The position numbers and the translations under genes were made by a program. Below, one piece after another: positions 7,441 through 58,326 of a stretch of DNA of 64,000 nucleotides; the first letter of the stretch is position 1; each line of letters opens with the position of its first letter. The stretch lies in IMG/VR virus record IMGVR_UViG_3300045988_126562, one strand, 5' to 3'. The notes beneath the pieces are model-generated. The model searched no databases, was not told where the DNA came from, and worked only from the letters and a program-made list of their open reading frames with translations. This DNA comes from a virus.

Positions 7441-7471
7441 TTTGATAAGCTATTAAATATGATTAACTTTG
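7441..7471 (+). promoter_or_regulatory. Bacteroides-type sigma-A promoter (-33 TTTG / -7 TAnnTTTG)
   Basis: TTTG at 7441-7444, a 19-nt spacer, then TAACTTTG at 7464-7471. The scaffold ATG lies at 7496. Confidence 0.7.
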
Positions 7472-25388: not shown

Positions 25389-25947
25389 AATAAATGATAA
25401 AGAGTATAGAGTTAAAATAGCTTATACTGATGAGGAAAAATCCAGAGGCTTGCAGGGAATAAATTCTTTACCAGAGGATGAAGGTATGTTATTTGTATAT
25501 GATGAACCTCAAACGGTTGGGTTTTGGATGGATGATACTAATATTCCATTAGATATAGTCTTTATAGACGATGATGAAGAAGTATTATCTGTATATTCTG
25601 GAGAGCCTAATGATAGAACTATAGCAGAGGAAGATAATGTAAAATATGTACTAGAAGTCAATCAAGGCTCTGGAATTAAAGAAGGAGACGAGATTGACAT
25701 AGAAGAAGAGGAGGATGATTCCGAAACCTCTAAAATGTTAGTGATTGGGCCAGATGGAGGAGTACAAATGGAATTAGAAGGAGGAGAAAGAATTGTTTCT
25801 AGAAGAGAGACTAAAATATTAGTAAAAAAGGCTAAAAAAGCATATAATTCTGAATTAGATTCTGATTACAAATCTTTAGGAAAATATATGTTTAAAGTGC
25901 TAAACAAACAGGATAAGCGTGAGCCTGAATATGTGGAACAAGAATGA
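25378..25947 (+). CDS. DUF192 (COG1430) domain protein with acidic C-terminal extension
   Basis: From ATG 25378: MIVKINDKEYRVKIAYTDEEKSRGLQG...EGMLFVYDEPQTVGFWMDDTNIPLDIVFID...VKYVLEVNQG. This matches the DUF192 signature (GLM..GMLF..FWM.nT..PLD..F). The start overlaps the previous stop. Confidence 0.75.
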   Translation: MIVKINDKEYRVKIAYTDEEKSRGLQGINSLPEDEGMLFVYDEPQTVGFWMDDTNIPLDIVFIDDDEEVLSVYSGEPNDRTIAEEDNVKYVLEVNQGSGIKEGDEIDIEEEEDDSETSKMLVIGPDGGVQMELEGGERIVSRRETKILVKKAKKAYNSELDSDYKSLGKYMFKVLNKQDKREPEYVEQE

Positions 25948-25955
25948 AAAAAAAT

Positions 25956-25990
25956 AAGGGAGAAGCCGCAATAATTGCAACTTCTCCCTT
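25956..25990. terminator. Bidirectional intrinsic terminator at the convergence of the two late gene blocks
   Basis: Perfect 10-bp stem AAGGGAGAAG (25956-25965) / CTTCTCCCTT (25981-25990). An A-run lies upstream and a T-run downstream, so it works on both strands. It sits between stop codons at 25947 (+) and 25997 (-). Confidence 0.85.
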
Positions 25991-25996
25991 TTATTT

Positions 25997-28900
25997 TTAT
26001 TCCTGTTCATCTAACGGAAACATATCATATATCATTGGTTTAAATGGTTTAAATGCTCCTACATTTGAAACAAAAGCTCTTGGCAAATTACTATCACCAG
26101 ATATAGCATCTTTAAGTGATGTAACAAATCTTGTGATAACTCCCCAAGCTACGAAATTTAACTCTAATTGGCCAGTAAATGTTTTCCAAATATTAAATTC
26201 AGAACTAGCATTTCTTAATACTAATTCTATATTCTTATCAATGGCTGTTTTATCACTTTCTTTTACATTACCAAATAACAGATACATAAGTATCGAGAAG
26301 AAAGCTAATCCTCCTACATCTCCCAAAAATAGATTAAGATTTCTTAATTTAGTGGGATCATTCCATGCTTTTAAGAAGTCTTCTCTGCTAGTTCCTCCTT
26401 TTATATAATTAACCACATTAATTAAACTTGCCAAACTCCAGAATATACCTTCCATCATGCCTCCCTGCCAGTCTTTAACAGGAAATCCTGTGTTTTCTGT
26501 AGTTTCTACTCTTTTCCCAGAATCATCATATTTCCAATATAACTTTTTTCCTGTTACAGAGTCCACTTTGTCAACCCATTTACCTGTTTTATATGTTCCA
26601 GGAGTTAAAAAGTATTGAGCACCTCTAGCGGTAATATATGATTGGAATTGCCCTAAAATAACTCCGATGCCTTTCCTAAACCACATGGATTTGTTTGTAC
26701 TGTCCATATATCCGAACATCATATTAGCTTCCTGAATCATTTTATTTGATTCTAGAACTGTATATGCTTTAGGAATATCCTTATCATCGTCCGTCATAGA
26801 CCTAGTTTCTCCAGTTTCCCAGTTAGTTACAACAGCTCCCTCATCTATCATTTGCCTCCATATTGTCAAATAAAGAGATCTCTGCTCTTGAAATGTTTCT
26901 AATTCAGATTTAGGAATTTCAGATTCTGGAGTATTTTGATACTTAGCATAAATACTAAATCTTTTATCTTCACGCCAATTATATTCTATATGATCCCCCA
27001 CTAGTTTATGTGCATCATAATTACCATCCTTTAGCATATAAGCAGTAAATACTGTCATTCTGTGTAAAAAGTCCGGAGACCTAGCGGTAAAGAATAGTAT
27101 ATTATTAACTCTTCCTACTTCTCCCTGATAGTAATTTAATCTTTCTACCATTTCCTGTTCGGATACGTTAGCTATACCATATTGAGCGTTTAAATGCTCT
27201 CCCATAGTAATTGTTTTTATCTGCCTAAATCCATCCTGCCATACCATTGAATATGCTTTACTAGCTTCTTTTATTCCAAATCTGGAGTCATCAAATCTAT
27301 TGGCGTTAGCATTATTAAATAAAGTCCACCATCCGACTAATCCTTCCTTAGCCATAGATAGAACATTTAATCCTAATACCATCTTACTAGCCACAGACTT
27401 TATGGAAGAAACTGTTCTCCATAAACCTTTTTCATCTTTATCAAATAAAGACATATCCAATACTGAAGATTTAATGAAGTTGACAATGAAGTCCAAAGTA
27501 GGTTTATTAAGTTCCAGCTGCCCATTACTTAATTGGGCATTCCAAGCATACGAACACAATGAAGAACTTACGTTAGCAATTACAGGGTCTAATATTTCCT
27601 TTCTGGTAACTACATAATTATATAAATCCTTAATTCTTTCTAGATTTATGTCAAATGACTCTAATCCCTCTTTTTCTATCATTCCTAATCTTTTGTCAGG
27701 ATCAGATGATAAAGAAAAGGAATTAAATATACCATCAAAAATTAACCCATTTTTTCCAAAGTCTGTTTCAGAAGAATCCAATCCTAAACTCATTCTAGGA
27801 TCTATAGTAGCATCTTCTAAACCTAATGTATCTTTGAGAGCCTCCTTAATGTTTTGTTTATTGTTTACTATTCTTGATAAAGCTCCAGCTCTTACTAATG
27901 GTAATTGAAAAATATCGTACCCTTGATCTTCTGCCTCTTCTAAAGTTAAATCATATTTAATTCTAGTTAAATCCCTAACATACCATTCTAGATATTCTTT
28001 TTCGTCTTTACTAAGAGTATCATCATATCTAAAATCTTTTAGCCTTAGATCTCTTGTATTAGATCTATCTATTAAATTTTTAAATATTATTTCTGAGTTA
28101 TTAACAAATCTGTTATTCCTAAATCCTGGGTTGCTATTTTTAAATTTATCGGTATGTCTTCTATCAACTACTTTATAAGCCATATACTTATTTCTAATTA
28201 TAGAGTTAGCTTCCATAACTCTATCGTATATAGCTTGAATTATAGGAATAGTATCCTGAGGTCTTAAATTAATAGAATTAAATAAAGTCTTGTTTTCTAT
28301 ACTCTCTCTTAATCCTTGACCTCCCAATATATTGCCAGATAATTTAGTTTCATTCCTAAAGTCTATAGAATATCCAGATAGTTTAGAAATAGCTAGATCT
28401 ACCTGTGATTTTAAGTAGCCTAATATAGAATTATCTTCTGTAGCATTAAACCTATATTTATAATAATGCTCATTTAAAGCATCCCTTAGCTTCTCTAGTC
28501 TTTTTAATTGCTCTGCCTTGTCATTTACCAATTCCGATAGTTTATCGTTTTTGAAATTATTTGGATTAATCGAATTGGCTCTGAAATAATTAGCAACAGA
28601 AGTTGAATTGACTATAGCCTCATATAAGGAAGCAACCCTAGCGTATAGTTCTCCAGCCCTAACTTTATTTGTTTCTATTCCAACTGAGTTAGCTAAAATA
28701 TTATAATTGTTTTCTAATTTTTCACGAATTACAGTATCATCAATTACGGACTTATTGCTTAACCCTAGGACTTTAAGTTCGCCTGTTTCATAATTGTCGG
28801 CTAGTTGATTAGCTAAATACAATAATTTAACTAGCTCAATATTACCCATATTTGCTACAAGTTTGTTAGATGAGGACATGTTGTCACTATATAAATGACC

Positions 28901-30478
28901 TAATATAGTATTTCCTTTTTCTAAATTTAAAGGTAAGTCTATATCTTCATACATTATAGATACAAAATCTACTGTTCTGTCTGCATCATTTTTAAACATT
29001 AAAACTCCTAGAGCATTTAAGTCCTCATTTTGAATAGCTTTCCAGTTAGGGTTAATTTTATATTTAGTTAGATTAATATTCAGCCACCTATTAAGTGAGT
29101 TGTCTGATACGAAAGATATTTCTTTATTTTCACTATCTTTTAAGTCATTAAATATTTGAGCTATTTTAGAAGTTTGATTTTTTCTATGTTCTCTTAATAC
29201 AGCCAGATAGTTCTTTAATTCTTTTTCTATTTCTTCCCTTGAATTTTTAGATACTTTACGTTCTCCTTTTATAATTCCTTTGATCATAGTAAACTGATAA
29301 CTATTTCCTACTTTAGTTACCATAGCATCATAGGCTTTTTGGAAACTTGCTTCGTCATACCCAGAATTAAAAACATCAAAACCAAACATCTTAGTTACAG
29401 TTTCTACTGTATTCTCAGCTAATTTAGAAGTTAGCGGCTGAGATTCTGTTTTAATATTCAACAGGCCAAATAATTTATACCTAGTAGAAATATTTGGAGT
29501 TAAGATTTTGGATGTCACATTAGAACTAGTAAAAGAATCTCCTGTTCTTCCAAGTTGGATAGGAATTAACTTCAAATTAAAGTTAGTAGGCTTTACTCCT
29601 ATATTCTCTAGCATTGTTTGATAAGTCATTAACTGTGCTAAAGCTGTAGCTTTCTTATCCGGATCCCAGGCATCATAATTAGTTCCAGATACTTTAAAGT
29701 CAATTATGTCTATAGTATTATCATCGTAAACTAATACCATATCCATTTTTCCTCTAATATTATAGGTAGAGTCTTTAAAATCAATACAGGGTTCAATAAA
29801 AGTATATTTTATTTTCTTATTAGCTGTTAATCCCTTTTTAATAGAATATAGTTGTTTAACCGTCTGTAATATAGCTTCATCTGATAATGAGTCAATATTA
29901 ATGTTTTCGCTTCCAAATTCAGCAATTTTTCTTCTTACTTCCTTAGGATACTTAGAATAATCCAAAAATGGATTCATAAATACATCATAGGCTATTTTGT
30001 GTAATCCTTTACCTACTTTCCTTATTTGGTCAAATCTAAGTTTTTCAGAATTTACCTTTTCTTCGATTATAGCTTTCCTTTCTTCTTCTGGCAGTTGCCT
30101 ATAATCGCTTTCTAGAGTTCTTCTATAAGCTCTCTCCCAGTTTTCTAAATTAAATTGTTCTGATTTGTCAGTCAATCCTTGAGTTTTTATAAATTCAAGA
30201 ACTCCTATTGAATTATCATCATAAACATCATCAAACTCATCACTGTCATATTTTGATATCTTAGTTCTTAGTTTTTTTAGATGCTCTTGATTTTTATTGT
30301 TTACTTTGTTGATTATAGCTATATTTTCAGCAGTTAAATCTTTACTAAATCTATAGTCTTCTGCTGTTTCTAGACTAAACTCATCTGGATTATTTCTTAT
30401 ATATGAATCTAATTCCTCTTCACTTGAAAATGAACGAGCTATTTCTTTATATGTTAGTTCATACGTACAGTCTTTCAT
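25997..30478 (-). CDS. Giant protein with N-terminal PD-(D/E)xK (RecB/Cas4-like) nuclease motifs and C-terminal hydrophobic segments
   Basis: 1493 aa containing IRGKMDMVLVYDDNTIDIIDFKVSG (DFK codons 29693-29701) followed by QLMTYQ. This matches the G.iD...iiD(Y/F)K(T/S)G and Q..Y motifs of RecB-family nucleases. Confidence 0.55.
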   Translation of the reverse strand: MKDCTYELTYKEIARSFSSEEELDSYIRNNPDEFSLETAEDYRFSKDLTAENIAIINKVNNKNQEHLKKLRTKISKYDSDEFDDVYDDNSIGVLEFIKTQGLTDKSEQFNLENWERAYRRTLESDYRQLPEEERKAIIEEKVNSEKLRFDQIRKVGKGLHKIAYDVFMNPFLDYSKYPKEVRRKIAEFGSENINIDSLSDEAILQTVKQLYSIKKGLTANKKIKYTFIEPCIDFKDSTYNIRGKMDMVLVYDDNTIDIIDFKVSGTNYDAWDPDKKATALAQLMTYQTMLENIGVKPTNFNLKLIPIQLGRTGDSFTSSNVTSKILTPNISTRYKLFGLLNIKTESQPLTSKLAENTVETVTKMFGFDVFNSGYDEASFQKAYDAMVTKVGNSYQFTMIKGIIKGERKVSKNSREEIEKELKNYLAVLREHRKNQTSKIAQIFNDLKDSENKEISFVSDNSLNRWLNINLTKYKINPNWKAIQNEDLNALGVLMFKNDADRTVDFVSIMYEDIDLPLNLEKGNTILGHLYSDNMSSSNKLVANMGNIELVKLLYLANQLADNYETGELKVLGLSNKSVIDDTVIREKLENNYNILANSVGIETNKVRAGELYARVASLYEAIVNSTSVANYFRANSINPNNFKNDKLSELVNDKAEQLKRLEKLRDALNEHYYKYRFNATEDNSILGYLKSQVDLAISKLSGYSIDFRNETKLSGNILGGQGLRESIENKTLFNSINLRPQDTIPIIQAIYDRVMEANSIIRNKYMAYKVVDRRHTDKFKNSNPGFRNNRFVNNSEIIFKNLIDRSNTRDLRLKDFRYDDTLSKDEKEYLEWYVRDLTRIKYDLTLEEAEDQGYDIFQLPLVRAGALSRIVNNKQNIKEALKDTLGLEDATIDPRMSLGLDSSETDFGKNGLIFDGIFNSFSLSSDPDKRLGMIEKEGLESFDINLERIKDLYNYVVTRKEILDPVIANVSSSLCSYAWNAQLSNGQLELNKPTLDFIVNFIKSSVLDMSLFDKDEKGLWRTVSSIKSVASKMVLGLNVLSMAKEGLVGWWTLFNNANANRFDDSRFGIKEASKAYSMVWQDGFRQIKTITMGEHLNAQYGIANVSEQEMVERLNYYQGEVGRVNNILFFTARSPDFLHRMTVFTAYMLKDGNYDAHKLVGDHIEYNWREDKRFSIYAKYQNTPESEIPKSELETFQEQRSLYLTIWRQMIDEGAVVTNWETGETRSMTDDDKDIPKAYTVLESNKMIQEANMMFGYMDSTNKSMWFRKGIGVILGQFQSYITARGAQYFLTPGTYKTGKWVDKVDSVTGKKLYWKYDDSGKRVETTENTGFPVKDWQGGMMEGIFWSLASLINVVNYIKGGTSREDFLKAWNDPTKLRNLNLFLGDVGGLAFFSILMYLLFGNVKESDKTAIDKNIELVLRNASSEFNIWKTFTGQLELNFVAWGVITRFVTSLKDAISGDSNLPRAFVSNVGAFKPFKPMIYDMFPLDEQE

Positions 30479-33411
30479 TATTTACAGTCTATTTTTAAAT
30501 TATTATTTTGAATTAGGTTAGATTTCACATTAGAAATTTTATTTTCAGTAATGGTTTTATCTAAATTTACTCCTATCGTTAAGTCTTTCAAAAGAGAACT
30601 ATTTCCATCTAGTAATAATGTTTTCATTAGAGTATTCATAAACTCAGAGTCGTCTCTAAATTTATCTGTAGAGTCGGTCCGGAATAGTTGAAAAGCTAAC
30701 TCTTTAATATTTAAATCAGATACTTTTAAGGCTCCATAATCTTGTACCCTTCCCATAAAATAGTCAGTTACTGCATGTACCAAAACTTCTTCAGCATAAT
30801 CATTTGGAGATAACTCTCTGTACCTTTCTTTTAGTTCTTCAAATTGAGTTAAATCAGGTATATTTTTGAGCATTTCAGAATACGCTGCTGGATTAGATAC
30901 TTTATATTGAGCTAATAATAAATGCATCAACTCATGTATAGGAGAATCTTCTGTACTTAAATCTGAGTTTAAGATTATCATTCCACTATGTATAAAAGCT
31001 TTGTTACTTGCCAAATTAGGTCCAAATAATGAGGTAATTTCATCAGAAGTAAACATATTCACTTTGATTCCTGATCTTTTCAAAGAATTAGCTAAAACTT
31101 CAAGCATATTTACGTTAGAATAATTAGGAGCATTTACCTCTACTCTGGAAATTGCCTCTGGAGTATAATGGGCGAATACATAAAATTTTTTATTCTGAAA
31201 GTTATTATAATTTCCAAATTCTTCATTTAGGAAATTTTCATAAGTATCATAAATAGTTTTTTCAAAGATTTCTCTTAGTTCTGGCTCGAAGAATTTCTTG
31301 TATTCTGTTACATTATGTCCAACAAACAAATCATCCTTTACTAATCCAGATAAAGTATTGTAATATACATTATCTCCAATGTATCTTAAGTCTGACATAT
31401 ACAGAGGAGAATGGTTAGAATAAGTACTATTAATCTGAGACTTAGGTATTTCTACATAGGTATTACCTTCGGATAGAATGAATCCATAATTGTTGTCAGT
31501 TATATTTACTAATACCCCGGTCTTTCTTTTATTATCATCAAATAAGAGAGAAAATACTACTCCTTTATTAAATCCTCCAGTATATACATTATACATGGAA
31601 GTATAGGGATTGAGTTTAGGTCTAAATTTAAAATCATAGATATGGTCTATAACCATTTTCATCTTATTCTGTGATACTGTATTAGTTATTGTGACAGTAT
31701 CCCCAGCTTGCATCTCTTTTAAATTGGCAAATAATCCGGGATTCTCACTATTAGTAAATTTTTGAAATTCTTCATTAGTAAAAGACTTATTTATTGTTGA
31801 TTTTGTAAAAGATAAATTTAATTCACTATCCAAGTAAGATAAAAATTCTCCTCTGTTTCTATTAATTGTATAATAATTTGGATAAATATAAGAAGATATT
31901 CCAGATTGATTTGCAGCTTTAACTGCTTGTATTGCAAAATCATCATACACTGTAGAATGTACTGACTCTACTAATACTCCATCAGTGTTTAATTTTTCTA
32001 TTAATTCAGACAATCCCTTTACAACTGATTTAGTAGGAATGGATTTCTGTTTTAGAACTACCCATTTTGGTTTTTTACCTTTCCCTGCATTCTTTCCTGT
32101 TTTTGTTGAAACTTCCGCTTTTATTTCCTTTATTTGTTCATCAGTTAATTCATACTTAGGATTTATTAATATTTTTAAAGGTTTGCCTGACTTTACTGTT
32201 GCAAATTTGGAGGTTGATTCATCTAATATTAGTTCTACATAAGTATCTTTAGATTTTAAAGTACTATTCATTACGTAGTTACTCTCATTTAAATAAATCA
32301 CTTTATCCTCTACTTGATAATCATCCTCCACTTCAATAGAACCTACTTTTGGAATATAAGATTCATCCATTGAAATCTCTGGAGTTTTATATAAATAATC
32401 AATTATATTATTTATTGTTTTATTAACACTAGGATCAAATAATTCATTTACTTCTATATCTTCGTTATTCAATAAATCATTTAATAGCTGTTCGTACTTT
32501 CCAGTTTTATTATCCTCGTAAAACTTTTTAAATTGAATTGGAACATTGTCTGGCAATTGAGAATCTGATACATCAGTAGCACTTTTGTAATTTCTTACCT
32601 TCTGCAATAATCCTATAATATTAGAATTAGTATATTTATGATTATTGAATACTGTTATATTATTTCCATATCCTATTATTGATTTTATTTTATCTCCTAC
32701 AACTGTGGTTCCAGTTATATTTATAGAATTTTCCGTTTTAGATTTTATTATTCCTCCTAACTCTCTTAGTAAATTTTTACTTAATTCACTATCGTCCGAT
32801 TGAGCTAGCAATAGCAACTTTTTGGCAGCTGTTAATTCTGATACTCCTTCCAAATGTTCTCTAAATGGATGATTTGAATCTAGAATCTGCTCTACATAAT
32901 TAGATAAGGTTCTATAAATAGGACTGTTTTTATTAGTAGATTCCTTACTTGCGTATTTAAACGCTAGAGTTTGGGATAAAGAAGATCCTGATTCCATAAT
33001 TGATGGATTTAATAGAATAAAATCCCTTTTAGTTCCTATATAGGCTTTACTTAATTTAGTAGAGTCACTAAATAAAAAAGAATTATCAGTATAATTAAGA
33101 AGATTGGTAATAGCAGAAACTGCGCTAAAGTCAGTAGACTGATTTATTCTAGATAATGTAGCAAGATTTAAACTAGTTGCATTACCTATAGCATAATCTC
33201 CAATATTGGTAGCTATTTGTTCTCCTTTAGCAATAATTTCATTTACATCTTGATCTACAGTATTTATAATATCGTCAATTTCCGATTGAAATCTTTTACT
33301 TCTAACTAAAGTCCCTAAAATACTATCTAGAGATGTGGACGAAATATCCACATCTCTAAAAGTATATTTTTTAGAACCTATTTGTATTTGTACACAACCT
33401 TTCTTACTCAT
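30478..33411 (-). CDS. Large protein with C-terminal HExxH zincin-like motif
   Basis: The ORF track starts at GTG 33414; the first ATG is 33411. HELMH is encoded at 30922-30936 (aa 827-831 of the ORF-track protein), with a Glu 16 residues downstream. Confidence 0.45.
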   Translation of the reverse strand: MSKKGCVQIQIGSKKYTFRDVDISSTSLDSILGTLVRSKRFQSEIDDIINTVDQDVNEIIAKGEQIATNIGDYAIGNATSLNLATLSRINQSTDFSAVSAITNLLNYTDNSFLFSDSTKLSKAYIGTKRDFILLNPSIMESGSSLSQTLAFKYASKESTNKNSPIYRTLSNYVEQILDSNHPFREHLEGVSELTAAKKLLLLAQSDDSELSKNLLRELGGIIKSKTENSINITGTTVVGDKIKSIIGYGNNITVFNNHKYTNSNIIGLLQKVRNYKSATDVSDSQLPDNVPIQFKKFYEDNKTGKYEQLLNDLLNNEDIEVNELFDPSVNKTINNIIDYLYKTPEISMDESYIPKVGSIEVEDDYQVEDKVIYLNESNYVMNSTLKSKDTYVELILDESTSKFATVKSGKPLKILINPKYELTDEQIKEIKAEVSTKTGKNAGKGKKPKWVVLKQKSIPTKSVVKGLSELIEKLNTDGVLVESVHSTVYDDFAIQAVKAANQSGISSYIYPNYYTINRNRGEFLSYLDSELNLSFTKSTINKSFTNEEFQKFTNSENPGLFANLKEMQAGDTVTITNTVSQNKMKMVIDHIYDFKFRPKLNPYTSMYNVYTGGFNKGVVFSLLFDDNKRKTGVLVNITDNNYGFILSEGNTYVEIPKSQINSTYSNHSPLYMSDLRYIGDNVYYNTLSGLVKDDLFVGHNVTEYKKFFEPELREIFEKTIYDTYENFLNEEFGNYNNFQNKKFYVFAHYTPEAISRVEVNAPNYSNVNMLEVLANSLKRSGIKVNMFTSDEITSLFGPNLASNKAFIHSGMIILNSDLSTEDSPIHELMHLLLAQYKVSNPAAYSEMLKNIPDLTQFEELKERYRELSPNDYAEEVLVHAVTDYFMGRVQDYGALKVSDLNIKELAFQLFRTDSTDKFRDDSEFMNTLMKTLLLDGNSSLLKDLTIGVNLDKTITENKISNVKSNLIQNNNLKIDCK

Positions 33412-42949: not shown

Positions 42950-42952
42950 ATA

Positions 42953-53208: not shown

Positions 53209-56200
53209 AAAGTCATAGATTTTATTATAAGCTCCTTAGTAAGTCCAGACAGGGACATAATAAGTTTGTTATTTTCTTTTTGAGAGTCAGATATCATTTT
53301 ATGAAATAGTTTGCGATCATTGATAAGACTTTTATTAAAATCCTTAGTTCTCTCCAACATAGATTTTTCTTTATATGTTAGATGCCCTCCAGACTTATAT
53401 ACAAATAAAAAAGGACTATATTTGTATGTATTTCTCCTAGCCGTTATCATTCCAGTTCTGTATCTATCCATTGCTTTTGAAGCAGCAGTATTATATGCCT
53501 TCATAGCAGATACATATTCTGGAGAGGTTGCCCATCCAGTTTCATTATTTCCTTCCTTAGCTAAATATGCAGCTTTGCTGTTATTCAGAGCTGTTTGAGC
53601 TGATCTTAAAGCATTTTCATACTCTGTTCCTCTTGCATATTGACTTTCCTGATAATCTAACTCATTGTTTAGTTTCCTATTTTCTGCTATTTTCATCTCT
53701 TTATCCATCAACCACGGAGCTATAGCTTGCTGCCAATTGGCCGATCTGCGTTGGGCTTCTATATTAGCTTTAGCTTGCTTAATTCCTAACATTGAAGCTC
53801 TATTTCTATTAGAAACATCTACTCTAGCAGCAGCATTTTGTTCAGCAGCTTGTCTAGCTTCTGCTGTGGATTTGTCAATAGCTTGTTTGTCAGCAAAATA
53901 ACCTTTAGTTCTATATTCTCCTGCTCTATTATTAAAATCTAAAGCTTGTCCTAGAGCTAAATTAGCATCAGAAGTTATAGGTCTAGATCCCAATCTATTG
54001 GCTTCTGCTCCTAAATTTTCCATATAATTTCTGGTAACTAAATCACCCACTACTTGTCTTCTTATTTGTAAAGGGTCTAGTAGTAATGGAGATAAGGAGT
54101 TTTTTAATCCTCTAGCTATAGCATTATTAGTAGCTATTGTTCCTAATAATCTTCCAGTACCTATTACATCATCCCATCTTATAGATGCAGTATTTCTTTT
54201 CTTAGGGCCTATTAATCCGGGACTACCAGTATTTGGACTAATACCAGTTAATTCTTGAGTTATCTGGGCTGGGGTTGTTCCTTTTAACTCTGGTTCCTCT
54301 TCTTCTATTGTTCCTATGTAAGGATTTACACCCTTGTCAGGTGAGGAGGGATTAAGTTCCCTTAATTTATAATAATTATCAGCTTCATCCAAGTAAAAAT
54401 CAAGACCTATTCCTTTATAGTCATTTATCATTTTTTGAAGCTGAGATTCATTGTAGTCTCCCTTTCTTCCTAGAAGTCTTCTATCATCAGTTATTCCACT
54501 ATATAATCCATCTGCCACAAATGATTTAGTTGGATTATCACCTGAGTATGCTTTGTTAGATACATTATATCTTCCGCTTGTAAATGCATTATTTATACCT
54601 ATAGTATTTCCAAAACCTCCTCCAAAATTATTAAATACTTCTTGATAATTTCTTACAGAATCACTTTTATATGGATTAGATAAGAAATTTTTCCCTGCCA
54701 TACTATATAATCTAGCATGGTCTGACTGCATATTATTAATATCTTGGTAACTTATTTTTCCAAGCTTCAAAGCATCTATCAAACTTCTATGAGTAGGAGA
54801 ATAATAATTATCATACCAAGTAGTATTTGGATTAAATTGAACCCCAGACATTCCAGTGCCCTGTTGATATTTAAATATTGTTCCTCCTTCTTGTTTTTTA
54901 TTTACATATCCCTTATTATCATTTTTTCTTTTGGGAGTTGAGGTTTTCTTCTGCTTTTTAGGTAAATTGTTATTCTTTCTATGAGAGTTATTTCCAACAT
55001 TAAGAGATTTTAATAATTGATCTTGAAATTGGTAGTATGTGTTTTCTGTATTTTTCTTATTTGGAATATAAGATACCTCAGTAGAGGTAATTGGTTTCCA
55101 AGGATTACTGTATTTGTCGAAATCAAATGCATCTGCCGATCTCCACCAATCTTCATAGTTTTTCCTATTCAGTTCTCTGTTAGTTATGGTTCCAGTTTCA
55201 GGAAGAGCTAATTGAGGCGATTTAGATCTTTTAGCTGCTTCTCTATAGACTCTACCACTATATAAAGTAGGTTCTAAGGACCCTTCTCCTACTCTTTCAT
55301 AGGAAATCCTTTCTTTAGAAGGCATAGGAATTTTGGATTCTGATTTAGTCGAATTATTTTTTAATTTATATTCAGCATCCCTTCTTCTACTTGGAGCTGG
55401 AAGAGCTAATTGAGAAGTACTTCCTACTTGTCCCACAACTTTACCAGCCATTTGAATGCGGGCTAAATTATCTGCAATAGCATTTATATTATTTTGAGCT
55501 TCTTCAGATAGAGGAGCTTCTGATTTAACTTTACTTGGTTCTCCAGTGTCAGATTTTTGCTTAGCTCTTCTAGAAGCTATAGGATGTACTATTTTGTTAT
55601 AGGCATTTCTAACATTAGGACTTCCAGGTATACGTATATTTGGTAATTGAGCATTTCCTAACCATCTTTCTGCTGGACCAAAATTATGAACTAATTTTAA
55701 GTCTCCAGAATAAGTTATAGCTGGCTTATTAAAGTCATATAGATCAGTAGTCTTTATATCAGATTTACCTTTGCCCTTACCTCTCCAATTTGAGCTTTCT
55801 GTAAGGGTAATTCCTGTATCCTTTAATAATTCATTTTGTGTTTTTAAGTCAGGAGCCTCTGCTACTTTTTGAGCTAAATTTTTGTCTATAGATCTCCATC
55901 CCTGATCAGTTTTCATCCATACCTTATCTGTTGATTTTACAGATTGTATATTTGAATTAGCTTTGGAAGCTCTATGTACAGCTGCTGTACCTCCTGCTAC
56001 TAATTGTAAAGAATTTAAAATATTTCTCCAATCATTAACTGATAATGATTCCCCTTTACTTATTTTATTCCAAGAACTTAGATATTGATCAGAATTAGCT
56101 AATCCTTGAGCAGTAGCAATTAATCCTACCATTTTGGGAGCAAATTTGCCAACTGCCTTAATCATCTTGGGAACTTTAGCTGCTTTAGCAAATGGAATTA

Positions 56201-57758
56201 AAGATAGAGCATCTAGTCCATAACTGCCAAGATTATTGGATAGGGATTCTAAAAATGACATTCCCTCCATCATATCAGCAGTTTGATTTAAGGCGGTAGA
56301 TGTAGCTCCAATTCCAGCAGATGCTACTGAACCAACTCCAGACATACTAGCTATTAAGCTAGCTATATCTCCAGCTATGGCCCCCATTCTTACTTTGTCA
56401 GCTCTAGAGAACTCTGTATGAGTATCGCTAGAGTTTTCAAATCCAGTAGTAGCTTTACTAAGTTGCTTTTCTTCCCTAGCTCTTTGTTCTACGGCTTCTT
56501 GAGCTATTTTTCTGTTAGCACTTCTTATTTTTTCTGTGTTATCAACATACCATCCCTCTTGAGCTTTTATTATGTTACCTCCATTCTTATATTCCCAAGG
56601 TTTCTTCATCCCTAAAGACCTTTCTATATTATATATAAGTTTTTGCCTACCTTTTTCGAAAGTAGACATAGGAACCTTTTCTATAACGTTGGTATTCCTA
56701 TTAAACCTAAATATAGAACCTTCATTATCATTTGCTGATTCTGGTAAGTAGTAATAGTTATTTTCATAGAATCCCTGATCTTCTAGGTCTTTTATTTTTT
56801 CTTTAGAAAAGTATCCCCAGAACCTATTAGAAAATGAATTAGAATCGTTAGAATAGTTTTGACTATTCCAATTTGCCCAATTTACTGGATTTCTTCTAGA
56901 AAACTCATCTATACTGGAATATCCTTCTAAATTAAAATTGGGATTTATTAGTTTACTACTAAAGTAAAAGGAATCTCCAGATTCTCTATTAGCTTTAATA
57001 GCTTCTTCTACTCTTTCTTCCAAGCTTTCCTTTTCAGATTTAGGAGTAGTGCCATAATTTTTATCAAAATATTGCCTAAAATCTCCTAGTCTAGAACCCA
57101 GTATTAGATCATTAGAATTATCATTATCATTAAAAGCATTAAAAAAGTCAGAAAATCTTGACTCATAATCTTCTTTATTAGACCAATTACCAGATTTAAA
57201 TCTATCATACTCTGATTTTACTACTTTTAATACATTATCTCTAGCTTGATCATAATTCCACCTTGTGGGGTCAAAAGTAGAACTATTGAAGTAGTACTTG
57301 TTTATTATATCTGGAGAAAAAGAATATTCTTTAGGTTTTTCTTGCGTTTCTTTCTTTTCAACTGGTGCAGTATAAATTGAAACTCCCTTGAATATATTAT
57401 CCAGTATACCGTAAGCATTATTCTTGTAAAAATCTTCATCCTTTTTATATTTCCCAGTCCATTTAGTCTTATTTACTCCTGTACTAGCTAGACTAGGATC
57501 TCCAAATATCTGAAATCTACCAGAAGCATCTCTTCCTTTTATAGACCCGGATTTTATTCCAGACATTATTTTATATGTATAGTCCCTAATAATTTGTTTG
57601 TCTGAACTATCTAAATCCAGTGAATTTAATTCATCGTCTATTTGTTGTGCATAAGCTCTATTAAGATCATCAAAATTATAATCACCTATACCCTCATGAT
57701 GAAATAATATTGGTTTATTAATAGAATTTCCGTTAGCATACTTTCTTACTTGTGCCAT
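53205..57758 (-). CDS. Putative ejection/tape-measure-like internal protein
   Basis: 1517 aa with a Gly/Ala/Ser-rich hydrophobic block (MGAIAGDIASLIASMSGVGSVASAGIGATS..., about 56079-56396). It also has C-terminal coiled coils and internal KNGG/KAQEGW (56550-56588) and KKQEGG (54882-54899) motifs. Confidence 0.4.
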   Translation of the reverse strand: MAQVRKYANGNSINKPILFHHEGIGDYNFDDLNRAYAQQIDDELNSLDLDSSDKQIIRDYTYKIMSGIKSGSIKGRDASGRFQIFGDPSLASTGVNKTKWTGKYKKDEDFYKNNAYGILDNIFKGVSIYTAPVEKKETQEKPKEYSFSPDIINKYYFNSSTFDPTRWNYDQARDNVLKVVKSEYDRFKSGNWSNKEDYESRFSDFFNAFNDNDNSNDLILGSRLGDFRQYFDKNYGTTPKSEKESLEERVEEAIKANRESGDSFYFSSKLINPNFNLEGYSSIDEFSRRNPVNWANWNSQNYSNDSNSFSNRFWGYFSKEKIKDLEDQGFYENNYYYLPESANDNEGSIFRFNRNTNVIEKVPMSTFEKGRQKLIYNIERSLGMKKPWEYKNGGNIIKAQEGWYVDNTEKIRSANRKIAQEAVEQRAREEKQLSKATTGFENSSDTHTEFSRADKVRMGAIAGDIASLIASMSGVGSVASAGIGATSTALNQTADMMEGMSFLESLSNNLGSYGLDALSLIPFAKAAKVPKMIKAVGKFAPKMVGLIATAQGLANSDQYLSSWNKISKGESLSVNDWRNILNSLQLVAGGTAAVHRASKANSNIQSVKSTDKVWMKTDQGWRSIDKNLAQKVAEAPDLKTQNELLKDTGITLTESSNWRGKGKGKSDIKTTDLYDFNKPAITYSGDLKLVHNFGPAERWLGNAQLPNIRIPGSPNVRNAYNKIVHPIASRRAKQKSDTGEPSKVKSEAPLSEEAQNNINAIADNLARIQMAGKVVGQVGSTSQLALPAPSRRRDAEYKLKNNSTKSESKIPMPSKERISYERVGEGSLEPTLYSGRVYREAAKRSKSPQLALPETGTITNRELNRKNYEDWWRSADAFDFDKYSNPWKPITSTEVSYIPNKKNTENTYYQFQDQLLKSLNVGNNSHRKNNNLPKKQKKTSTPKRKNDNKGYVNKKQEGGTIFKYQQGTGMSGVQFNPNTTWYDNYYSPTHRSLIDALKLGKISYQDINNMQSDHARLYSMAGKNFLSNPYKSDSVRNYQEVFNNFGGGFGNTIGINNAFTSGRYNVSNKAYSGDNPTKSFVADGLYSGITDDRRLLGRKGDYNESQLQKMINDYKGIGLDFYLDEADNYYKLRELNPSSPDKGVNPYIGTIEEEEPELKGTTPAQITQELTGISPNTGSPGLIGPKKRNTASIRWDDVIGTGRLLGTIATNNAIARGLKNSLSPLLLDPLQIRRQVVGDLVTRNYMENLGAEANRLGSRPITSDANLALGQALDFNNRAGEYRTKGYFADKQAIDKSTAEARQAAEQNAAARVDVSNRNRASMLGIKQAKANIEAQRRSANWQQAIAPWLMDKEMKIAENRKLNNELDYQESQYARGTEYENALRSAQTALNNSKAAYLAKEGNNETGWATSPEYVSAMKAYNTAASKAMDRYRTGMITARRNTYKYSPFLFVYKSGGHLTYKEKSMLERTKDFNKSLINDRKLFHKMISDSQKENNKLIMSLSGLTKELIIKSMTL

Positions 57759-57769
57759 ATACTTGAAAT

Positions 57770-57804
57770 AAAAAAGGAGTATGTAACGAAATCACACACT
57801 CCTT
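57770..57804 (-). terminator. Hairpin plus U-run between the 108-aa gene and the 1517-aa gene (possible attenuator)
   Basis: On the minus strand: AAGGAGT (57804-57798), a 17-nt loop, ACTCCTT (57780-57774), then TTTTATTT. Confidence 0.4.
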
Positions 57805-57809
57805 ATAAA

Positions 57810-58136
57810 TTAAACTCTCCTGACTATCAATCCACCATTTTTGAATACTGGTTCCCCTTGAGGAGCTTCTTGAGGACCTCCTGCACCACCTGCCATTTGT
57901 TGGATTAATTGTAAAAATCCTTCACACACAGCTAATGCTAATTGACCATCTCCTGCTTGTAATGCTTGCTGTGCCATTTGAGCTAGCTGCATAATTGGAT
58001 CTCCTCCTGCATCTGGACCAGCTGCTGGAGCTGGAGCACCTGTAGGTTGTCCTGCTGGAGCAGCCATTCCTTGTTCTTGTGGAGTGGGAGCTGCCCCTCC
58101 TTCTTGAAATTTTGCTACTTTTGAATTAATTTTCAT
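57810..58136 (-). CDS. Small Ala/Gly/Pro/Gln-rich low-complexity protein, first gene of the giant operon
   Basis: The start is moved from 58202 to ATG 58136 (MKINSKVAKFQEGGAAP). The -7 promoter box abuts 58202, and the new N-terminus aligns with that of the 624-aa protein. The gene is locally GC-rich. Confidence 0.5.
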   Translation of the reverse strand: MKINSKVAKFQEGGAAPTPQEQGMAAPAGQPTGAPAPAAGPDAGGDPIMQLAQMAQQALQAGDGQLALAVCEGFLQLIQQMAGGAGGPQEAPQGEPVFKNGGLIVRRV

Positions 58137-58203
58137 TTTTACATGATTTAATATGTTAGTACTAACTATCGAATTATTCAATAGCTCGATCATTGTAATC
58201 ATG

Positions 58204-58234
58204 CAAAATTACGTAGAAATATTTCAAAAACAAA
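58204..58234 (-). promoter_or_regulatory. Bacteroides-type sigma-A promoter for the giant-ORF operon
   Basis: The minus strand reads TTTG (58234-58231), a 19-nt spacer, then TAATTTTG (58211-58204). This is an exact match to TTTG-N19-21-TAnnTTTG. Confidence 0.65.
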
Positions 58235-58278: not shown

Positions 58279-58326
58279 AAAAAAAATAAGGGTGACACTT
58301 AGAAATTATATCCTAAATATCACCCT
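58279..58326 (-). terminator. Rho-independent terminator ending the accessory-gene block
   Basis: The minus strand reads AGGGTGA (58326-58320), a loop, TCACCCT (58295-58289), then TA plus T8 (58286-58279). It lies directly after the stop at 58337. Confidence 0.75.

What the first reader, a model, noticed from the sequence alone, without database searches (positions are those of the whole stretch)
25997..58234. 32-kb seven-gene operon of giant ORFs behind one host-type promoter: a candidate virion-delivered enzyme toolkit
Seven ORFs run from the promoter at 58204-58234 to the bidirectional terminator at 25956-25990: 108, 1517, 624, 2793, 3181, 977 and 1493 aa, about 10,700 codons and half the window. 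They lie head to tail with 1-8 nt overlaps or gaps of at most about 50 nt. Besides the crAss-type RNAP loop I can read four further enzyme signatures: a P-loop kinase-like module, an SF1 helicase, a PD-(D/E)xK nuclease and an HExxH motif. Several hydrophobic Gly-rich segments are also present. Published work on crAss-like phages established that the RNAP is virion-packaged and that large cargo proteins are ejected. As far as I know, the co-packaging and role of helicase, nuclease, protease and kinase modules are not characterised. Together they would form an injected early transcription and DNA-processing machine.
Basis: partly seen in the sequence, partly recalled or inferred. Interest (0 to 1): 0.75.

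Follow-up and report, generated by a model that had tools for sequence, protein, structure and literature searches.

The report
Crass-like phage injected-protein gene block
This 32-kb stretch is the known "cargo / virion RNA polymerase" gene block of a divergent crAss-like gut phage. This version carries extra helicase and kinase modules. Its giant proteins also keep conserved cysteines at their ends, which suggests they are tied head to tail for injection.

Summary
Seven co-oriented minus-strand genes (108, 1517, 624, 2793, 3181, 977 and 1493 aa) run from a Bacteroidetes-type promoter match (58204-58234) to a bidirectional terminator (25956-25990).

The phage is a divergent, probably Zeta-group, crAss-like phage. 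The block is its version of the known Crassvirales cargo/"transcription" block, whose products are virion-packaged in phi14:2 and crAss001.

- **Enzyme signatures.** The RNAP DFDID loop, SF1 helicase, PD-(D/E)xK nuclease and P-loop kinase are all supported. The HExxH module is only weakly supported.
- **Already published.** The zincin and nuclease modules were already reported in these proteins. The helicase is absent from every cultured crassvirus I checked. The kinase is a sub-lineage insertion in the RNAP.
- **Operon reading.** A conserved hairpin plus T-run follows the first gene, so "one simple operon" needs qualifying.
- **Unexpected result.** The giants are about 9-fold cysteine-depleted but keep terminal cysteines in gene order: A[..C], B[C..C], B'[C..C], C[C..]. 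This holds in large homolog families. The cysteines disappear exactly where neighbouring proteins are fused in other phages. That suggests head-to-tail linkage for ordered ejection.

Packaging in this lineage is inferred, not shown.

The parts
58289..58326 (-). Terminator-like hairpin plus T-run that ends the preceding operon (dNMP kinase, YqeY, HAD and Tad3-like genes)
   Evidence: 16-bp stem followed by T8. An equivalent hairpin lies upstream of the block in relatives L055 and L056. The upstream genes were identified with Pfam.
58204..58234 (-). Bacteroidetes-type promoter match, TTTG-N19-TAATTTTG, 67 nt before the first ATG
   Evidence: Exact pattern match. It is not significant by count alone (6 observed against 3.6 expected). 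It is conserved in sequence and position in L055 and L056. No transcript data exist.
57810..58136 (-). Gene 1: a 108-aa Ala/Pro/Gly/Gln-rich protein with KFQEGG at its N end and FKNGG at its C end. It is the best-conserved protein of the block.
   Evidence: ORF. It is 80-81% identical in relatives whose 2793-aa homolog is only 38-49% identical. No Pfam or PHROG match.
57774..57804 (-). Hairpin plus T6 in the 51-nt gap after gene 1: a candidate leaky terminator (attenuator)
   Evidence: Consensus scan. Folding energy is -17.5 kcal/mol. Hairpin and T-run are conserved in L055 and L056.
53205..57758 (-). Gene 2: a 1517-aa, cysteine-free protein. It has a Gly/Ala/Ser-rich hydrophobic segment (aa 465-483; 56310-56366) and three [YK]K.GG motifs. 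Candidate counterpart of crAss001 cargo protein C1 (gp45), that is, an ejection-channel protein.
   Evidence: The hydrophobic segment resembles the gp45 transmembrane segment in composition. The motifs are conserved in orthologs. There is no significant sequence match to gp45, so this assignment is an inference.
51334..53208 (-). Gene 3: a 624-aa, cysteine-free protein with an N-terminal KLQQGGAAPPF motif. Candidate counterpart of cargo protein C2 (gp46).
   Evidence: Orthologs of 644 aa occupy the same position, with the N-terminal motif conserved. Equivalence to gp46 rests on position and size only.
42953..51334 (-). Gene 4, "A-type" giant (2793 aa). It holds an SF1 helicase core at about aa 1520-1870 (45725-46777). 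Its only cysteine is the last residue (42956-42958).
   Evidence: Pfam AAA_19 (32.3 bits) and AAA_30 (29.8 bits) score above their cut-offs. Helicase motifs I, II, III, V and VI are invariant or nearly so in 86 homologs. There are 87 homolog clusters of 2.4-3.5 k aa, apart from one 1644-aa fragment. A cysteine lies within the last 6 residues in 72 of 87.
33404..42949 (-). Gene 5, "B-type" giant (3181 aa): the virion-type two-barrel RNA polymerase. DFDID is at aa 2203-2207 (36329-36343). A P-loop NMP-kinase-like domain is inserted at about aa 1385-1575 (38225-38797). Cys5 (42935-42937) and Cys3179 (33413-33415) lie at the two ends.
   Evidence: BLASTP to the phi14:2 gp66 catalytic loop (E 2e-5) and to crAss001 gp50 (E 1e-4). 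GSDxDxD is conserved in homologs. The kinase module is present only in close relatives. The AF2 model has pLDDT 79, and all of the top 50 PDB matches are P-loop kinases. Terminal cysteines are conserved.
30478..33411 (-). Gene 6, "B'-type" protein (977 aa). It has HELMH at aa 826-830 (30922-30936) and EEVLVH at aa 874-879. Its only two cysteines are Cys6 and Cys976.
   Evidence: HExxH and the downstream EE..H are invariant in 7 orthologs. Weak zincin matches: SprT-like in 5 of 7 orthologs, Peptidase_M78 in the window copy. hhalign against the C-terminal zincin modules of crAss001 gp47, crAss002 gp32, LMMB and Fpv1 gives P 0.002. The fold could not be modelled.
25997..30478 (-). Gene 7, "C-type" giant (1493 aa). 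It has a PD-(D/E)xK nuclease at about aa 150-310 (29549-30031), Cys4 (30467-30469), and a hydrophobic helix 110 aa from the C end (26276-26332).
   Evidence: Pfam PDDEXK_1 matches 4 of 7 orthologs (best E 7e-8); the window copy matches DUF2800. The profile matches crAss001 gp47 aa 1717-1815 at E 5e-8. D, DxK and Q...Y are invariant. An N-terminal cysteine is present in 122 of 131 family representatives. The hydrophobic helix sits at the same relative position in crAss001 gp49 and phi14:2 g065.
25956..25990 (.). Bidirectional terminator hairpin between the convergent structural genes and the block
   Evidence: 16-bp stem with 7 GC pairs, flanked by an A-run and a T-rich run.

Best explanation
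The stretch is the cargo (internal virion protein) and virion-RNA-polymerase gene block of a divergent, probably Zeta-group, crAss-like phage of human-gut Bacteroidota.

**Expression (inferred).** Host RNA polymerase transcribes the block late or mid-infection from the conserved TTTG-N19-TAnnTTTG promoter. It makes much of the small 108-aa protein. A conserved hairpin plus T-run then lets only part of the transcription read through into the six large genes.

**Packaging (inferred by homology and shared signatures).** The products are loaded into the capsid and leave through the tail ahead of the DNA.
- The cysteine-free 1517-aa and 624-aa proteins act like crAss001 C1 and C2, which are thought to form the envelope-spanning channel.
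- The four giants then follow: A (2793 aa, SF1 helicase), B (3181 aa, two-barrel RNAP with an inserted NMP-kinase-like domain), B' (977 aa, zincin-like HExxH) and C (1493 aa, PD-(D/E)xK nuclease).
- B transcribes the early genes. The helicase plausibly opens or feeds template DNA to a polymerase whose characterised relative prefers single-stranded DNA. The roles of the nuclease, protease and kinase are not known.

**Shown here.** Gene structure, conserved synteny, RNAP loop homology, helicase, nuclease and kinase domain identity, and promoter and hairpin conservation.

**Inferred.** Packaging, order of ejection and the roles after entry.
For: **Crassvirus identity**
- Muzzle protein matches Pfam crAss_MUZ at E 2e-23.
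- The MCP is about 23% identical to Crassvirales MCPs.
- The source contig is 145.6 kb, and in some relatives the RNAP ORF breaks exactly at GSD|FDID. Both match the Zeta group as described in PMC7886860.

**RNAP**
- Aa 2157-2212 are 42% identical to phi14:2 gp66 aa 1314-1370, and also match crAss001 gp50.
- GSDxDxD and ARIPxQSMQSF are conserved across 17 homologs.

**Synteny**
- The order 1517-624-2793-3181-977-1493 is kept in relatives at 25-40% identity.

**Virion presence of the counterparts**
- phi14:2 g065-g070 are annotated from MS/MS proteomics.
- crAss001 gp45, gp46, gp47, gp49 and gp50 were detected in virions (PMC10172136).
- The gp66 RNAP is reported as a virion component that enters the host cell with the phage DNA and transcribes the early genes (PMC7886860, citing the phi14:2 study). 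Orthologs of gp66 and of the two adjacent gene products are reported in virions (bioRxiv 10.1101/2020.03.07.982082).

**Signatures linking the window's A and C proteins to those virion-verified proteins**
- A single C-terminal cysteine in A-type proteins, an N-terminal cysteine in C-type proteins, and a hydrophobic helix 110-137 aa from the C end of C-type proteins.
- PD-(D/E)xK homology to crAss001 gp47 at E 5e-8.

**Domains**
- Helicase, kinase, nuclease.

**Regulation**
- Promoter and hairpins are conserved.
Against: - No experimental data exist for any Zeta-type phage, so packaging is an extrapolation.
- Direct sequence homology could not be shown between 2793 and gp47/g067, 1517 and gp45, or 624 and gp46, even with family profiles.
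- The domain layout differs from the studied phages. There the zincin and nuclease sit in the A-type protein (gp47). Here they sit in separate proteins after the RNAP.
- The promoter pattern alone is not above chance.
- In crAss001 the RNAP genes fall into two temporal classes on two strands (PMC8375218), so one co-transcribed unit is not the rule.
- The HExxH fold is unconfirmed.
Confidence: 0.78

Rival explanations
1. The four giants are joined head to tail through their terminal cysteines, by disulfide or metal bridges, in the order A-B-B'-C. This would give one thread of about 8,400 residues. The thread would be pulled through the tail in a fixed order, and the reducing cytoplasm would then release its parts. 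This extends the best explanation and does not replace it.
For: **Depletion and placement**
- Cysteine makes up 0.14% of the block, against 1.24% and 2.2% in the other ORFs of the same window. Six of the block's 15 cysteines are terminal.

**Family-wide pattern**
- A-type family: 72 of 87 have a cysteine in the last 6 residues and at least 82 of 87 in the last 9. In 20 it is the only cysteine in about 3,000 aa. None has an N-terminal cysteine.
- B-type family: 17 of 17 have a cysteine at position 3-7, and 13 of 13 full-length members have one in the last 5 residues.
- C-type family: 122 of 131 have a cysteine in the first 8 residues, and only 2 of 131 in the last 9.

**Same pattern in other crass-like phages**
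- It holds in the virion-verified proteins of crAss001 and phi14:2, and also in DAC15.

**Covariation with gene fusion**
- In the Fpv1 A+B fusion (4401 aa) the only cysteine is residue 4400, and the next protein starts MAC.
- In the B+C fusions of LMMB, crAss002 and Rudgehvirus, the A|B cysteine pair is kept and no cysteine lies at the fused junction.

**Plausibility**
- Disulfides are used widely in the crAss001 tail (PMC10172136).
- I found no report of this pattern in the searchable literature.
Against: - No biochemical evidence exists, and the partner of each cysteine is inferred from gene order only.
- Proteins are made in a reducing cytoplasm, so bonds would have to form inside the particle.
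- The cysteines could instead bind metal, attach to the portal or capsid, or form part of a packaging signal.
- The C-terminal cysteine of crAss001 gp50 is 8 residues from the end, and the crAss002 gp33 start had to be re-read (M33-S-C35).
- In crAss001 the A-type gene (gp47) lies on the opposite strand from the B and C genes and is expressed later.
Confidence: 0.4
2. The helicase, nuclease and kinase modules are not early-transcription helpers. They are injected counter-defence or host-takeover effectors: they would protect the incoming DNA end, degrade host DNA or defence nucleic acids, or rebalance nucleotide pools. Phage P1 DarB, a capsid-packaged giant protein with a helicase-like domain, is a precedent (own knowledge).
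For: - The helicase is absent from the A-type proteins of every cultured crassvirus I checked: crAss001, phi14:2, crAss002, LMMB and Fpv1. It is therefore an accessory, not a core RNAP component.
- The kinase module is an insertion limited to a sub-lineage.
- The neighbouring operon encodes a Tad3-like anti-Thoeris protein, so this phage invests in counter-defence.
Against: - The helicase catalytic motifs are invariant in 86 giant homologs that always sit next to the RNAP gene. This suggests a tight functional link with transcription.
- The kinase is inserted inside the RNAP polypeptide close to conserved polymerase motifs.
- No match to known defence or anti-defence families was sought for these domains; PADLOC was not run.
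Confidence: 0.25
3. The large proteins are not packaged. They would be made and used inside the infected cell as a phage-encoded transcription and replication factory, and only the RNAP or a fragment of it would enter virions.
For: - In crAss001, gp49 and gp50 are expressed at the middle stage, and the authors suggested they may also transcribe late genes in the same cycle (PMC8375218).
- No proteomics exist for this lineage.
Against: - All three RNAP-block proteins were detected in virions of both phi14:2 and crAss001.
- Extreme cysteine depletion with retained terminal cysteines is hard to explain for ordinary cytoplasmic enzymes. It fits proteins that must pass unfolded through a narrow channel.
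- The block converges on the structural module and is separated from the replication and nucleotide-metabolism genes by a terminator.
Confidence: 0.1

Closest known systems
Cellulophaga phage phi14:2 g065-g070 (gp66 virion RNAP with its neighbours gp65 and gp67)
   Same: - Co-oriented run of smaller virion proteins, then A (g067), B (g066, DFDID RNAP) and C (g065).
- All are annotated from virion MS/MS.
- The catalytic loop is 42% identical.
- The terminal-cysteine pattern is identical: g067 ends in Cys, g066 has MAC...ECK, g065 starts MSC.
- The C-type protein has a hydrophobic helix about 130 aa from its end.
   Different: - The proteins here are larger: 2793 and 3181 aa against 1797 and 2180 aa.
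- There is an extra 977-aa protein between B and C.
- The SF1 helicase and the kinase insert are absent from phi14:2.
- HExxH lies near the N end of gp65 there, and near the C end of the 977-aa protein here.
- Outside the catalytic loop there is no detectable sequence similarity.
Bacteroides phage crAss001 cargo proteins C1 (gp45) and C2 (gp46), and RNAP-associated gp47, gp50 and gp49
   Same: - Detected in virions and proposed to be ejected ahead of the DNA (PMC10172136).
- The PD-(D/E)xK region of gp47 is homologous to that of the 1493-aa protein (E 5e-8).
- The gp45-like Gly/Ala-rich hydrophobic segment is present.
- Same terminal-cysteine logic.
   Different: - In crAss001 the block is split over two strands and two temporal classes. 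Here it is one co-oriented cluster.
- Nuclease and zincin are both inside gp47 (A-type) there.
- There is no helicase or kinase module there.
"Transcription gene block" of crAss-like phages (Yutin et al. 2018, 2021), Zeta group
   Same: - Several large multidomain proteins, one with DxDxD. Some have a PDDEXK domain.
- Zeta genomes are 145-192 kb.
- RNAP ORFs are interrupted inside DxDxD in some members (PMC7886860; seen here in relatives).
   Different: - In the window all ORFs are intact under the standard genetic code.
- I could not see that paper's Figure 3, so I cannot say whether the helicase or kinase domains were drawn there. The text and supplements do not mention them.
Coliphage N4 / Schitoviridae ejectosome (giant vRNAP plus two ejection proteins)
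   Same: A giant polymerase is packaged in the capsid and expelled with helper proteins to start early transcription (PMC13434306 abstract).
   Different: - The N4 vRNAP is a T7-like single-subunit polymerase (own knowledge). This one is a two-barrel DFDID enzyme with no Pfam match to any polymerase family.
- They are analogous, not homologous.
Phage P1 DarB and other capsid-packaged antirestriction proteins (own knowledge, not checked here)
   Same: A protein of more than 2,000 aa with helicase-type motifs is packaged in the head and injected with the DNA.
   Different: - DarB is an SF2-type helicase plus methyltransferase and is not linked to a polymerase.
- No homology was tested.

Membership tests
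Crassvirales cargo / virion-RNAP gene block | Giant protein with the DFDxD catalytic loop homologous to phi14:2 gp66 / crAss001 gp50 | tested here: met
   BLASTP E 2e-5 and 1e-4 in a 13-protein database. GSDxDxD is conserved in the homologs that span the motif.
Crassvirales cargo / virion-RNAP gene block | Located in a crassvirus genome next to the structural module (muzzle protein, crass-type MCP) | tested here: met
   Pfam crAss_MUZ at E 2e-23 for 19301-24103. MCP tblastn matches Crassvirales records.
Crassvirales cargo / virion-RNAP gene block | RNAP flanked by two further giant proteins (A before it, C after it) homologous to gp47/g067 and gp49/g065 | tested here: inconclusive
   Order, sizes, terminal-cysteine signature and hydrophobic-helix positions agree. 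Family HMMs give no significant whole-protein match. Only the nuclease domain matches gp47.
Crassvirales cargo / virion-RNAP gene block | Products present in purified virions and ejected into the host | not testable with these tools
   Known only for phi14:2 and crAss001.
Two-barrel (double-psi beta-barrel) RNA polymerases | Two DPBB domains forming the active site | not tested
Sequence and profile searches of the PDB did not reach 6VR4-type entries.
SF1 helicases (RecD / Pif1 / Dda-like; Pfam AAA_19, AAA_30) | Motifs I (GxGKT/S), II (DE), III (GDxxQ), V (QGxE) and VI (YTxxxR) in order | tested here: met
   Pfam scores are above the gathering cut-offs. There is a weak RecD match in the PDB. 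The motifs are invariant or nearly so in 86 homologs.
PD-(D/E)xK nucleases (Pfam PDDEXK_1 clan) | Core D ... (D/E)xK, plus the RecB-type Q...Y motif | tested here: met
   D246, D260-x-K262 and Q282...Y286 are invariant. PF12705 matches 4 of 7 orthologs at E down to 7e-8, and the window copy matches DUF2800 at E 0.011.
P-loop NMP / nucleoside kinases | Walker A plus the kinase fold with an arginine-rich LID-type segment | tested here: met
   GHPxxGK[TS], FFSD and ERxRxRG are invariant. AF2 model pLDDT 79. The top 50 PDB matches are all shikimate, adenylate, dNMP or similar kinases, with E from 2e-4 and TM 0.4-0.5. The best viral match is a giant protein of crAss-like phage cr124_1 (E 2e-6). The substrate is unknown.
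Zincin-like metallopeptidases | HExxH helix plus a third zinc ligand, within the zincin fold | tested here: inconclusive
   HExxH and a downstream EE..H are invariant. Sub-threshold SprT-like and M78 matches. hhalign P 0.002 against the annotated crass zincin modules. The AF2 model has pLDDT 47 and the Foldseek matches are meaningless.
N4-like (T7-type single-subunit) virion RNAP | T7-like polymerase domain | tested here: not met
   No Pfam or PHROG match of any kind for the 3181-aa protein. Its catalytic motif is the multisubunit-type DFDID.

The most novel reading that the evidence does not exclude
The virion RNA-polymerase giants of crAss-like phages would be covalently or metal-linked head to tail through conserved terminal cysteines. 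The C-terminal Cys of each protein would pair with the N-terminal Cys of the next gene's product. This would rebuild, after translation, the single polyprotein that some relatives encode directly.

The resulting megadalton thread would be ejected in a fixed order through the tail. Reduction in the host cytoplasm would then take it apart. In this lineage the thread would also carry an SF1 helicase, an NMP-type kinase, a zincin and a nuclease.
Probability: 0.4. Interest if true: 0.85.

Novelty: new variant of a known kind. Interest (0 to 1): 0.55.

Why it matters
crAss-like phages are the most abundant viruses of the human gut. How they move more than a megadalton of protein, including their polymerase, through a channel narrower than 50 A is an open question raised by the crAss001 structure.

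This locus adds two things.
- **Module accretion.** In a large uncultured lineage the injected giants have picked up an SF1 helicase with intact catalytic motifs and a kinase domain inserted into the polymerase itself. This gives concrete candidates for how a polymerase that prefers single-stranded DNA gets started on injected double-stranded DNA.
- **Terminal cysteines.** The rule, and its covariation with gene fusion, gives a simple hypothesis for ordered ejection and release. It can be tested in the already cultured phages crAss001, phi14:2 and DAC15 with existing methods, and possibly with mass-spectrometry data that already exist.

Tried and rejected
- **Megablast of the 2793-aa gene against GenBank phages:** no match.
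- **PHROGs:** nothing useful for any of the seven proteins.
- **PDB by sequence:** phmmer with the two largest proteins gave only a weak RecD P-loop match. Profiles of the kinase, nuclease and HExxH modules gave nothing.
- **Family HMMs against crAss001 and phi14:2 proteins:** only the RNAP loop and the nuclease domain came out. The low-scoring matches of the 86-member A-family HMM to gp46 and g068 look compositional, and I did not use them.
- **HExxH structure:** The accepted alignment had only 4 close sequences and gave pLDDT 47. Its Foldseek matches are meaningless and I discarded them.
- **RNA searches:** Rfam at gathering threshold on the window and two relatives found nothing, so the interruption of the RNAP gene in relatives could not be typed as a known intron family. 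There are no tRNAs in the window.
- **Sigma-70 scan:** it gave only a 9/12 site at the promoter. I set it aside because Bacteroidetes promoters differ.
- **Split inteins or protein splicing as the reason for the terminal cysteines:** rejected. No intein-sized segments flank the termini, and the cysteines are the last residue, or the 3rd to 7th residue, of otherwise ordinary ends.
- **Records not available:** two papers (PMC5736458, PMC12127119) and one genome record (NC_024711).

Full report
**1. The observation**

The window holds seven co-oriented minus-strand ORFs of 108, 1517, 624, 2793, 3181, 977/978 and 1493 aa between 58136 and 25997. GC skew flips at about 26000, where the plus-strand genes meet them.

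The terminator hairpin at 25956-25990 is real. It is flanked by an A-run and a T-rich run, so it can serve both convergent units.

The claimed promoter at 58234-58204 reads TTTG-N19-TAATTTTG, which is the Bacteroidetes -33/-7 consensus (consensus from my own knowledge). The pattern is not rare in this AT-rich window: 6 matches against 3.6 +/- 1.8 expected. By itself it therefore proves little.

Two relatives help here. Their 2793-aa homologs are only 49% and 38% identical, but the head of the block is conserved almost base for base:
- an upstream terminator hairpin;
- the same promoter-like sequence, 67-88 nt before the ATG;
- a small protein 80-81% identical to the window's 108-aa protein;
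- a hairpin followed by T6 in the 50-55-nt gap before the next gene.

It looks like an intrinsic terminator that must be read through for the six large genes to be expressed. "One promoter" is therefore plausible and conserved. "One simple operon" is not the whole story.

**2. What phage this is**

The window is the reverse complement of part of IMG/VR contig IMGVR_UViG_3300045988_105784 (145.6 kb).

- The plus-strand gene 19301-24103 matches Pfam's crassvirus muzzle protein family at E 2e-23.
- The major capsid protein is about 23% identical to Crassvirales capsid proteins. It is 57-75% identical to two unannotated human-faecal phage records.
- Several features fit the Zeta group of crAss-like phages as described in PMC7886860. 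These are genome size and near-absence from GenBank phages. In some relatives the RNAP ORF also stops exactly inside GSD|FDID.
- In the window all ORFs are intact under the standard genetic code.

**3. The block is a known kind of thing**

- In phi14:2 the run g070-g065 is annotated from virion MS/MS. It includes the catalytic RNAP gp66 and its neighbours gp67 and gp65.
- In crAss001, mass spectrometry found gp45 (C1), gp46 (C2), gp47, gp49 and gp50 in particles. They are proposed to leave ahead of the DNA (PMC10172136).
- The phi14:2 preprint states that in some phages the three RNAP-block proteins are fused into one polyprotein. It also states that gp65 orthologs contain a zincin-like protease.

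In the window, aa 2157-2212 of the 3181-aa protein align with the catalytic loop of gp66 (42% identity, E 2e-5) and with crAss001 gp50. The gene order 1517-624-2793-3181-977-1493 is kept in IMG/VR and Logan relatives at 25-40% identity.

Outside the catalytic loop and the nuclease domain, I could not show sequence homology to the studied phages, even with family HMMs. The equivalence of the other proteins rests on position, size and the signatures described in section 5.

**4. The enzyme signatures**

| Module | Protein and position | Verdict | Key evidence |
|---|---|---|---|
| SF1 helicase | 2793 aa, about aa 1520-1870 | strong | |
| PD-(D/E)xK nuclease | 1493 aa, about aa 150-310 | supported | |
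| P-loop kinase | 3181 aa, about aa 1385-1575 | supported at fold level | |
| HExxH (zincin-like) | 977 aa, aa 826-830 | likely, not confirmed | |

*SF1 helicase.*
- Pfam AAA_19 and AAA_30 score above their curated cut-offs.
- The protein belongs to a family of 87 clusters of 2,400-3,500-aa proteins, apart from one 1644-aa fragment. Most carry the same Pfam domains.
- Motifs I, II, III, V and VI are invariant or nearly so in 86 of them. The ATPase is under selection.
- No such domain is detectable in the A-type proteins of crAss001, phi14:2, crAss002, a p-crAssphage-type genome (LMMB) or Fpv1.

*PD-(D/E)xK nuclease.*
- D, DxK and Q...Y are invariant in orthologs.
- Pfam PDDEXK_1 matches four of seven orthologs, down to E 7e-8.
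- The domain profile matches crAss001 gp47 aa 1717-1815 at E 5e-8. So the nuclease module lies in a protein shown to be in virions.

*P-loop kinase.*
- The module is an insertion between two conserved RNAP segments. It is present in the closer homologs and absent from eleven more distant ones.
- Walker A, an FFSD strand and an ERxRxRG segment are invariant.
- The AlphaFold model has pLDDT 79. All of its top 50 PDB matches are shikimate, adenylate, dNMP or similar kinases.
- The best viral match is part of a giant protein of another crAss-like phage, cr124_1 (E 2e-6, 27% identity). Such modules are therefore not unique to this lineage.

*HExxH.*
- HExxH and a downstream EE..H are invariant.
- The only Pfam family hit by several orthologs is the zincin family SprT-like, below threshold.
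- A profile-profile comparison with the C-terminal zincin-annotated modules of gp47-type proteins gives P 0.002, with the motifs aligned.
- In all these proteins the motif lies 150-222 residues before a C-terminal cysteine.
- The structure model failed (pLDDT 47) and its Foldseek matches are meaningless.

**5. An unexpected regularity: terminal cysteines**

The seven proteins contain 15 cysteines in 10,693 residues (0.14%). The other ORFs of the same window have 1.24% and 2.2%. Six of the 15 sit at protein ends, in a pattern that follows gene order:

| Protein | Type | N-terminal Cys | C-terminal Cys |
|---|---|---|---|
| 2793 aa | A | none | last residue (its only cysteine) |
| 3181 aa | B | Cys5 | third residue from the end |
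| 977 aa | B' | Cys6 | second residue from the end (no other cysteines) |
| 1493 aa | C | Cys4 | none |

The same pattern, A[..C], B[C..C], C[C..], is found in crAss001 (gp47, gp50, gp49), phi14:2 (g067, g066, g065) and DAC15.

It also holds across large families:
- A-type: 72 of 87 have a cysteine in the last 6 residues and at least 82 of 87 in the last 9. In 20 it is the sole cysteine. None has one near the N end.
- B-type: 17 of 17 have a cysteine at position 3-7, and all 13 full-length members have one within the last 5 residues.
- C-type: 122 of 131 representatives at the 50%-identity cluster level have a cysteine in the first 8 residues. Only 2 have one in the last 9.

The pattern tracks gene fusion:
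- In Flavobacterium phage Fpv1, A and B are fused into a 4401-aa protein whose single cysteine is residue 4400. The next protein starts MAC.
- In LMMB, crAss002 and Rudgehvirus, B and C are fused. The A-type protein still ends in a cysteine and the fusion starts MSC or MAC. No cysteine lies at the fused junction or at the C end.
- For crAss002 this requires reading the start at M33.

Cysteine pairs therefore occur exactly where the polypeptide chain is broken. The simplest reading is that consecutive products are joined end to end inside the particle, by a disulfide or a shared metal. This would recreate the polyprotein thread that some relatives encode directly. The strong depletion of internal cysteines would avoid knots in proteins that must pass unfolded through the tail.

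Disulfides are common in the crAss001 tail. I found no mention of this pattern in the searchable literature, but the published phi14:2 paper itself was not available to me. The reading is an inference. I give it about 0.4.

**6. Other shared signatures**

- C-type proteins (1493 aa, crAss001 gp49, phi14:2 g065) all have a hydrophobic helix 110-137 residues from the C end.
- The 1517-aa protein has a Gly/Ala/Ser-rich hydrophobic segment like the predicted membrane helix of crAss001 gp45.
- A short motif of the form [YFK][KR]x-GG, usually followed by basic residues, recurs in the first three proteins:
  - at both ends of the 108-aa protein, at the N end of the 624-aa protein, and at three sites in the 1517-aa protein;
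  - it is conserved in orthologs;
  - it also occurs as KCGG/RCGG in the first cargo proteins of LMMB, crAss002 and Rudgehvirus;
  - its role is unknown. A docking or processing site is a guess.

**7. How it most likely works**

- **Shown:** gene structure, synteny, domain identities, and conservation of the promoter and hairpins.
- **Inferred from the studied relatives:** expression by host RNAP at middle or late times, packaging into the capsid, and exit before the DNA. The cysteine-free 1517- and 624-aa proteins would form the envelope channel, and the RNAP would transcribe the early genes.
- **Inferred from this work:** the A-B-B'-C chain.
- **Open:** what the helicase, kinase, nuclease and protease do after entry.

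For the helicase I favour template opening for a polymerase whose characterised relative is most active on single-stranded DNA. A counter-defence role is a real alternative, because the helicase is lineage-specific.

**8. Verdict**

The finding is real and correctly placed in crAss biology, but its core is already known. The block, virion packaging of its counterparts, the zincin and the nuclease are all published.

What is new is the lineage-specific helicase with intact catalytic motifs, the kinase inserted in the polymerase, the conserved attenuator after a very conserved small first gene, and above all the terminal-cysteine rule.

I rate the locus as a new variant of a known kind, with interest 0.55. 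The cysteine-chain reading, if true, would deserve about 0.85.

Noticed in passing
window 42956-42958, 42935-42937, 33413-33415, 33394-33396, 30484-30486, 30467-30469; also L033, L051, L052, L053, L054, L057, L058: The giant proteins are almost cysteine-free except at their termini, in the gene-order pattern A[..C], B[C..C], B'[C..C], C[C..]. The rule holds in families of 87, 17 and 131 homologs. The cysteines vanish at junctions that are fused in other phages.
   Followed up: yes
window 57810-58136 and 57774-57804; L055:3090-3442; L056:2360-2741: The 108-aa first gene is the most conserved protein of the block: 80-81% identical where the giants are 38-49% identical. It is followed by a conserved hairpin plus T6 that looks like a leaky terminator.
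   Followed up: partly
window genes 57810-58136, 53205-57758, 51334-53208; L052:146-940; L053:1301-2974; L058:843-3116: A short motif, [YFK][KR]x-GG usually followed by basic residues, recurs in the first cargo proteins. It is conserved in orthologs. It appears as KCGG/RCGG in p-crAssphage-type, crAss002 and Rudgehvirus proteins. Its function is unknown.
   Followed up: partly
L026:10960-12100; L056:25330-25700: In relatives the RNAP gene is interrupted exactly between GSDF and DIDK. The insert is 0.33 kb in one relative. In the other it is 1.1 kb and encodes a LAGLIDADG-type endonuclease. The window copy is uninterrupted. Rfam found no known intron family.
   Followed up: partly
window 59864-60640 (-): A 258-aa protein matches Pfam Tad3, a Type I Thoeris inhibitor, at E 9e-36. 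It is a likely anti-defence gene in the operon just upstream of the block.
   Followed up: no
window 58337-59857 (-): The upstream operon also encodes a dNMP kinase (DNMK), a YqeY-like protein and a HAD_SAK_2 domain protein of the "Swiss Army Knife" RNA-repair type. DNMK is also the last gene before the block in relative L055, and the second-last in L056.
   Followed up: no
window 7441-7471 (+) and 43445-43476 (-): There are two further exact TTTG-N19/20-TAnnTTTG matches. One overlaps the start of the gene that precedes the major capsid protein gene. The other lies inside the 3' end of the 2793-aa gene, about 500 nt before the RNAP start. Either could be chance.
   Followed up: no
window 38225-38797 (-): The closest viral structural match of the kinase insert is a segment of a giant protein of crAss-like phage cr124_1 (27% identity, E 2e-6). 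Kinase modules in crass giants may therefore be more widespread than this lineage.
   Followed up: partly
window 25354-25947 (+): The last plus-strand gene before the convergent terminator is a DUF192 (COG1430) protein at E 3e-26. This is an unusual family next to crassvirus tail genes.
   Followed up: no
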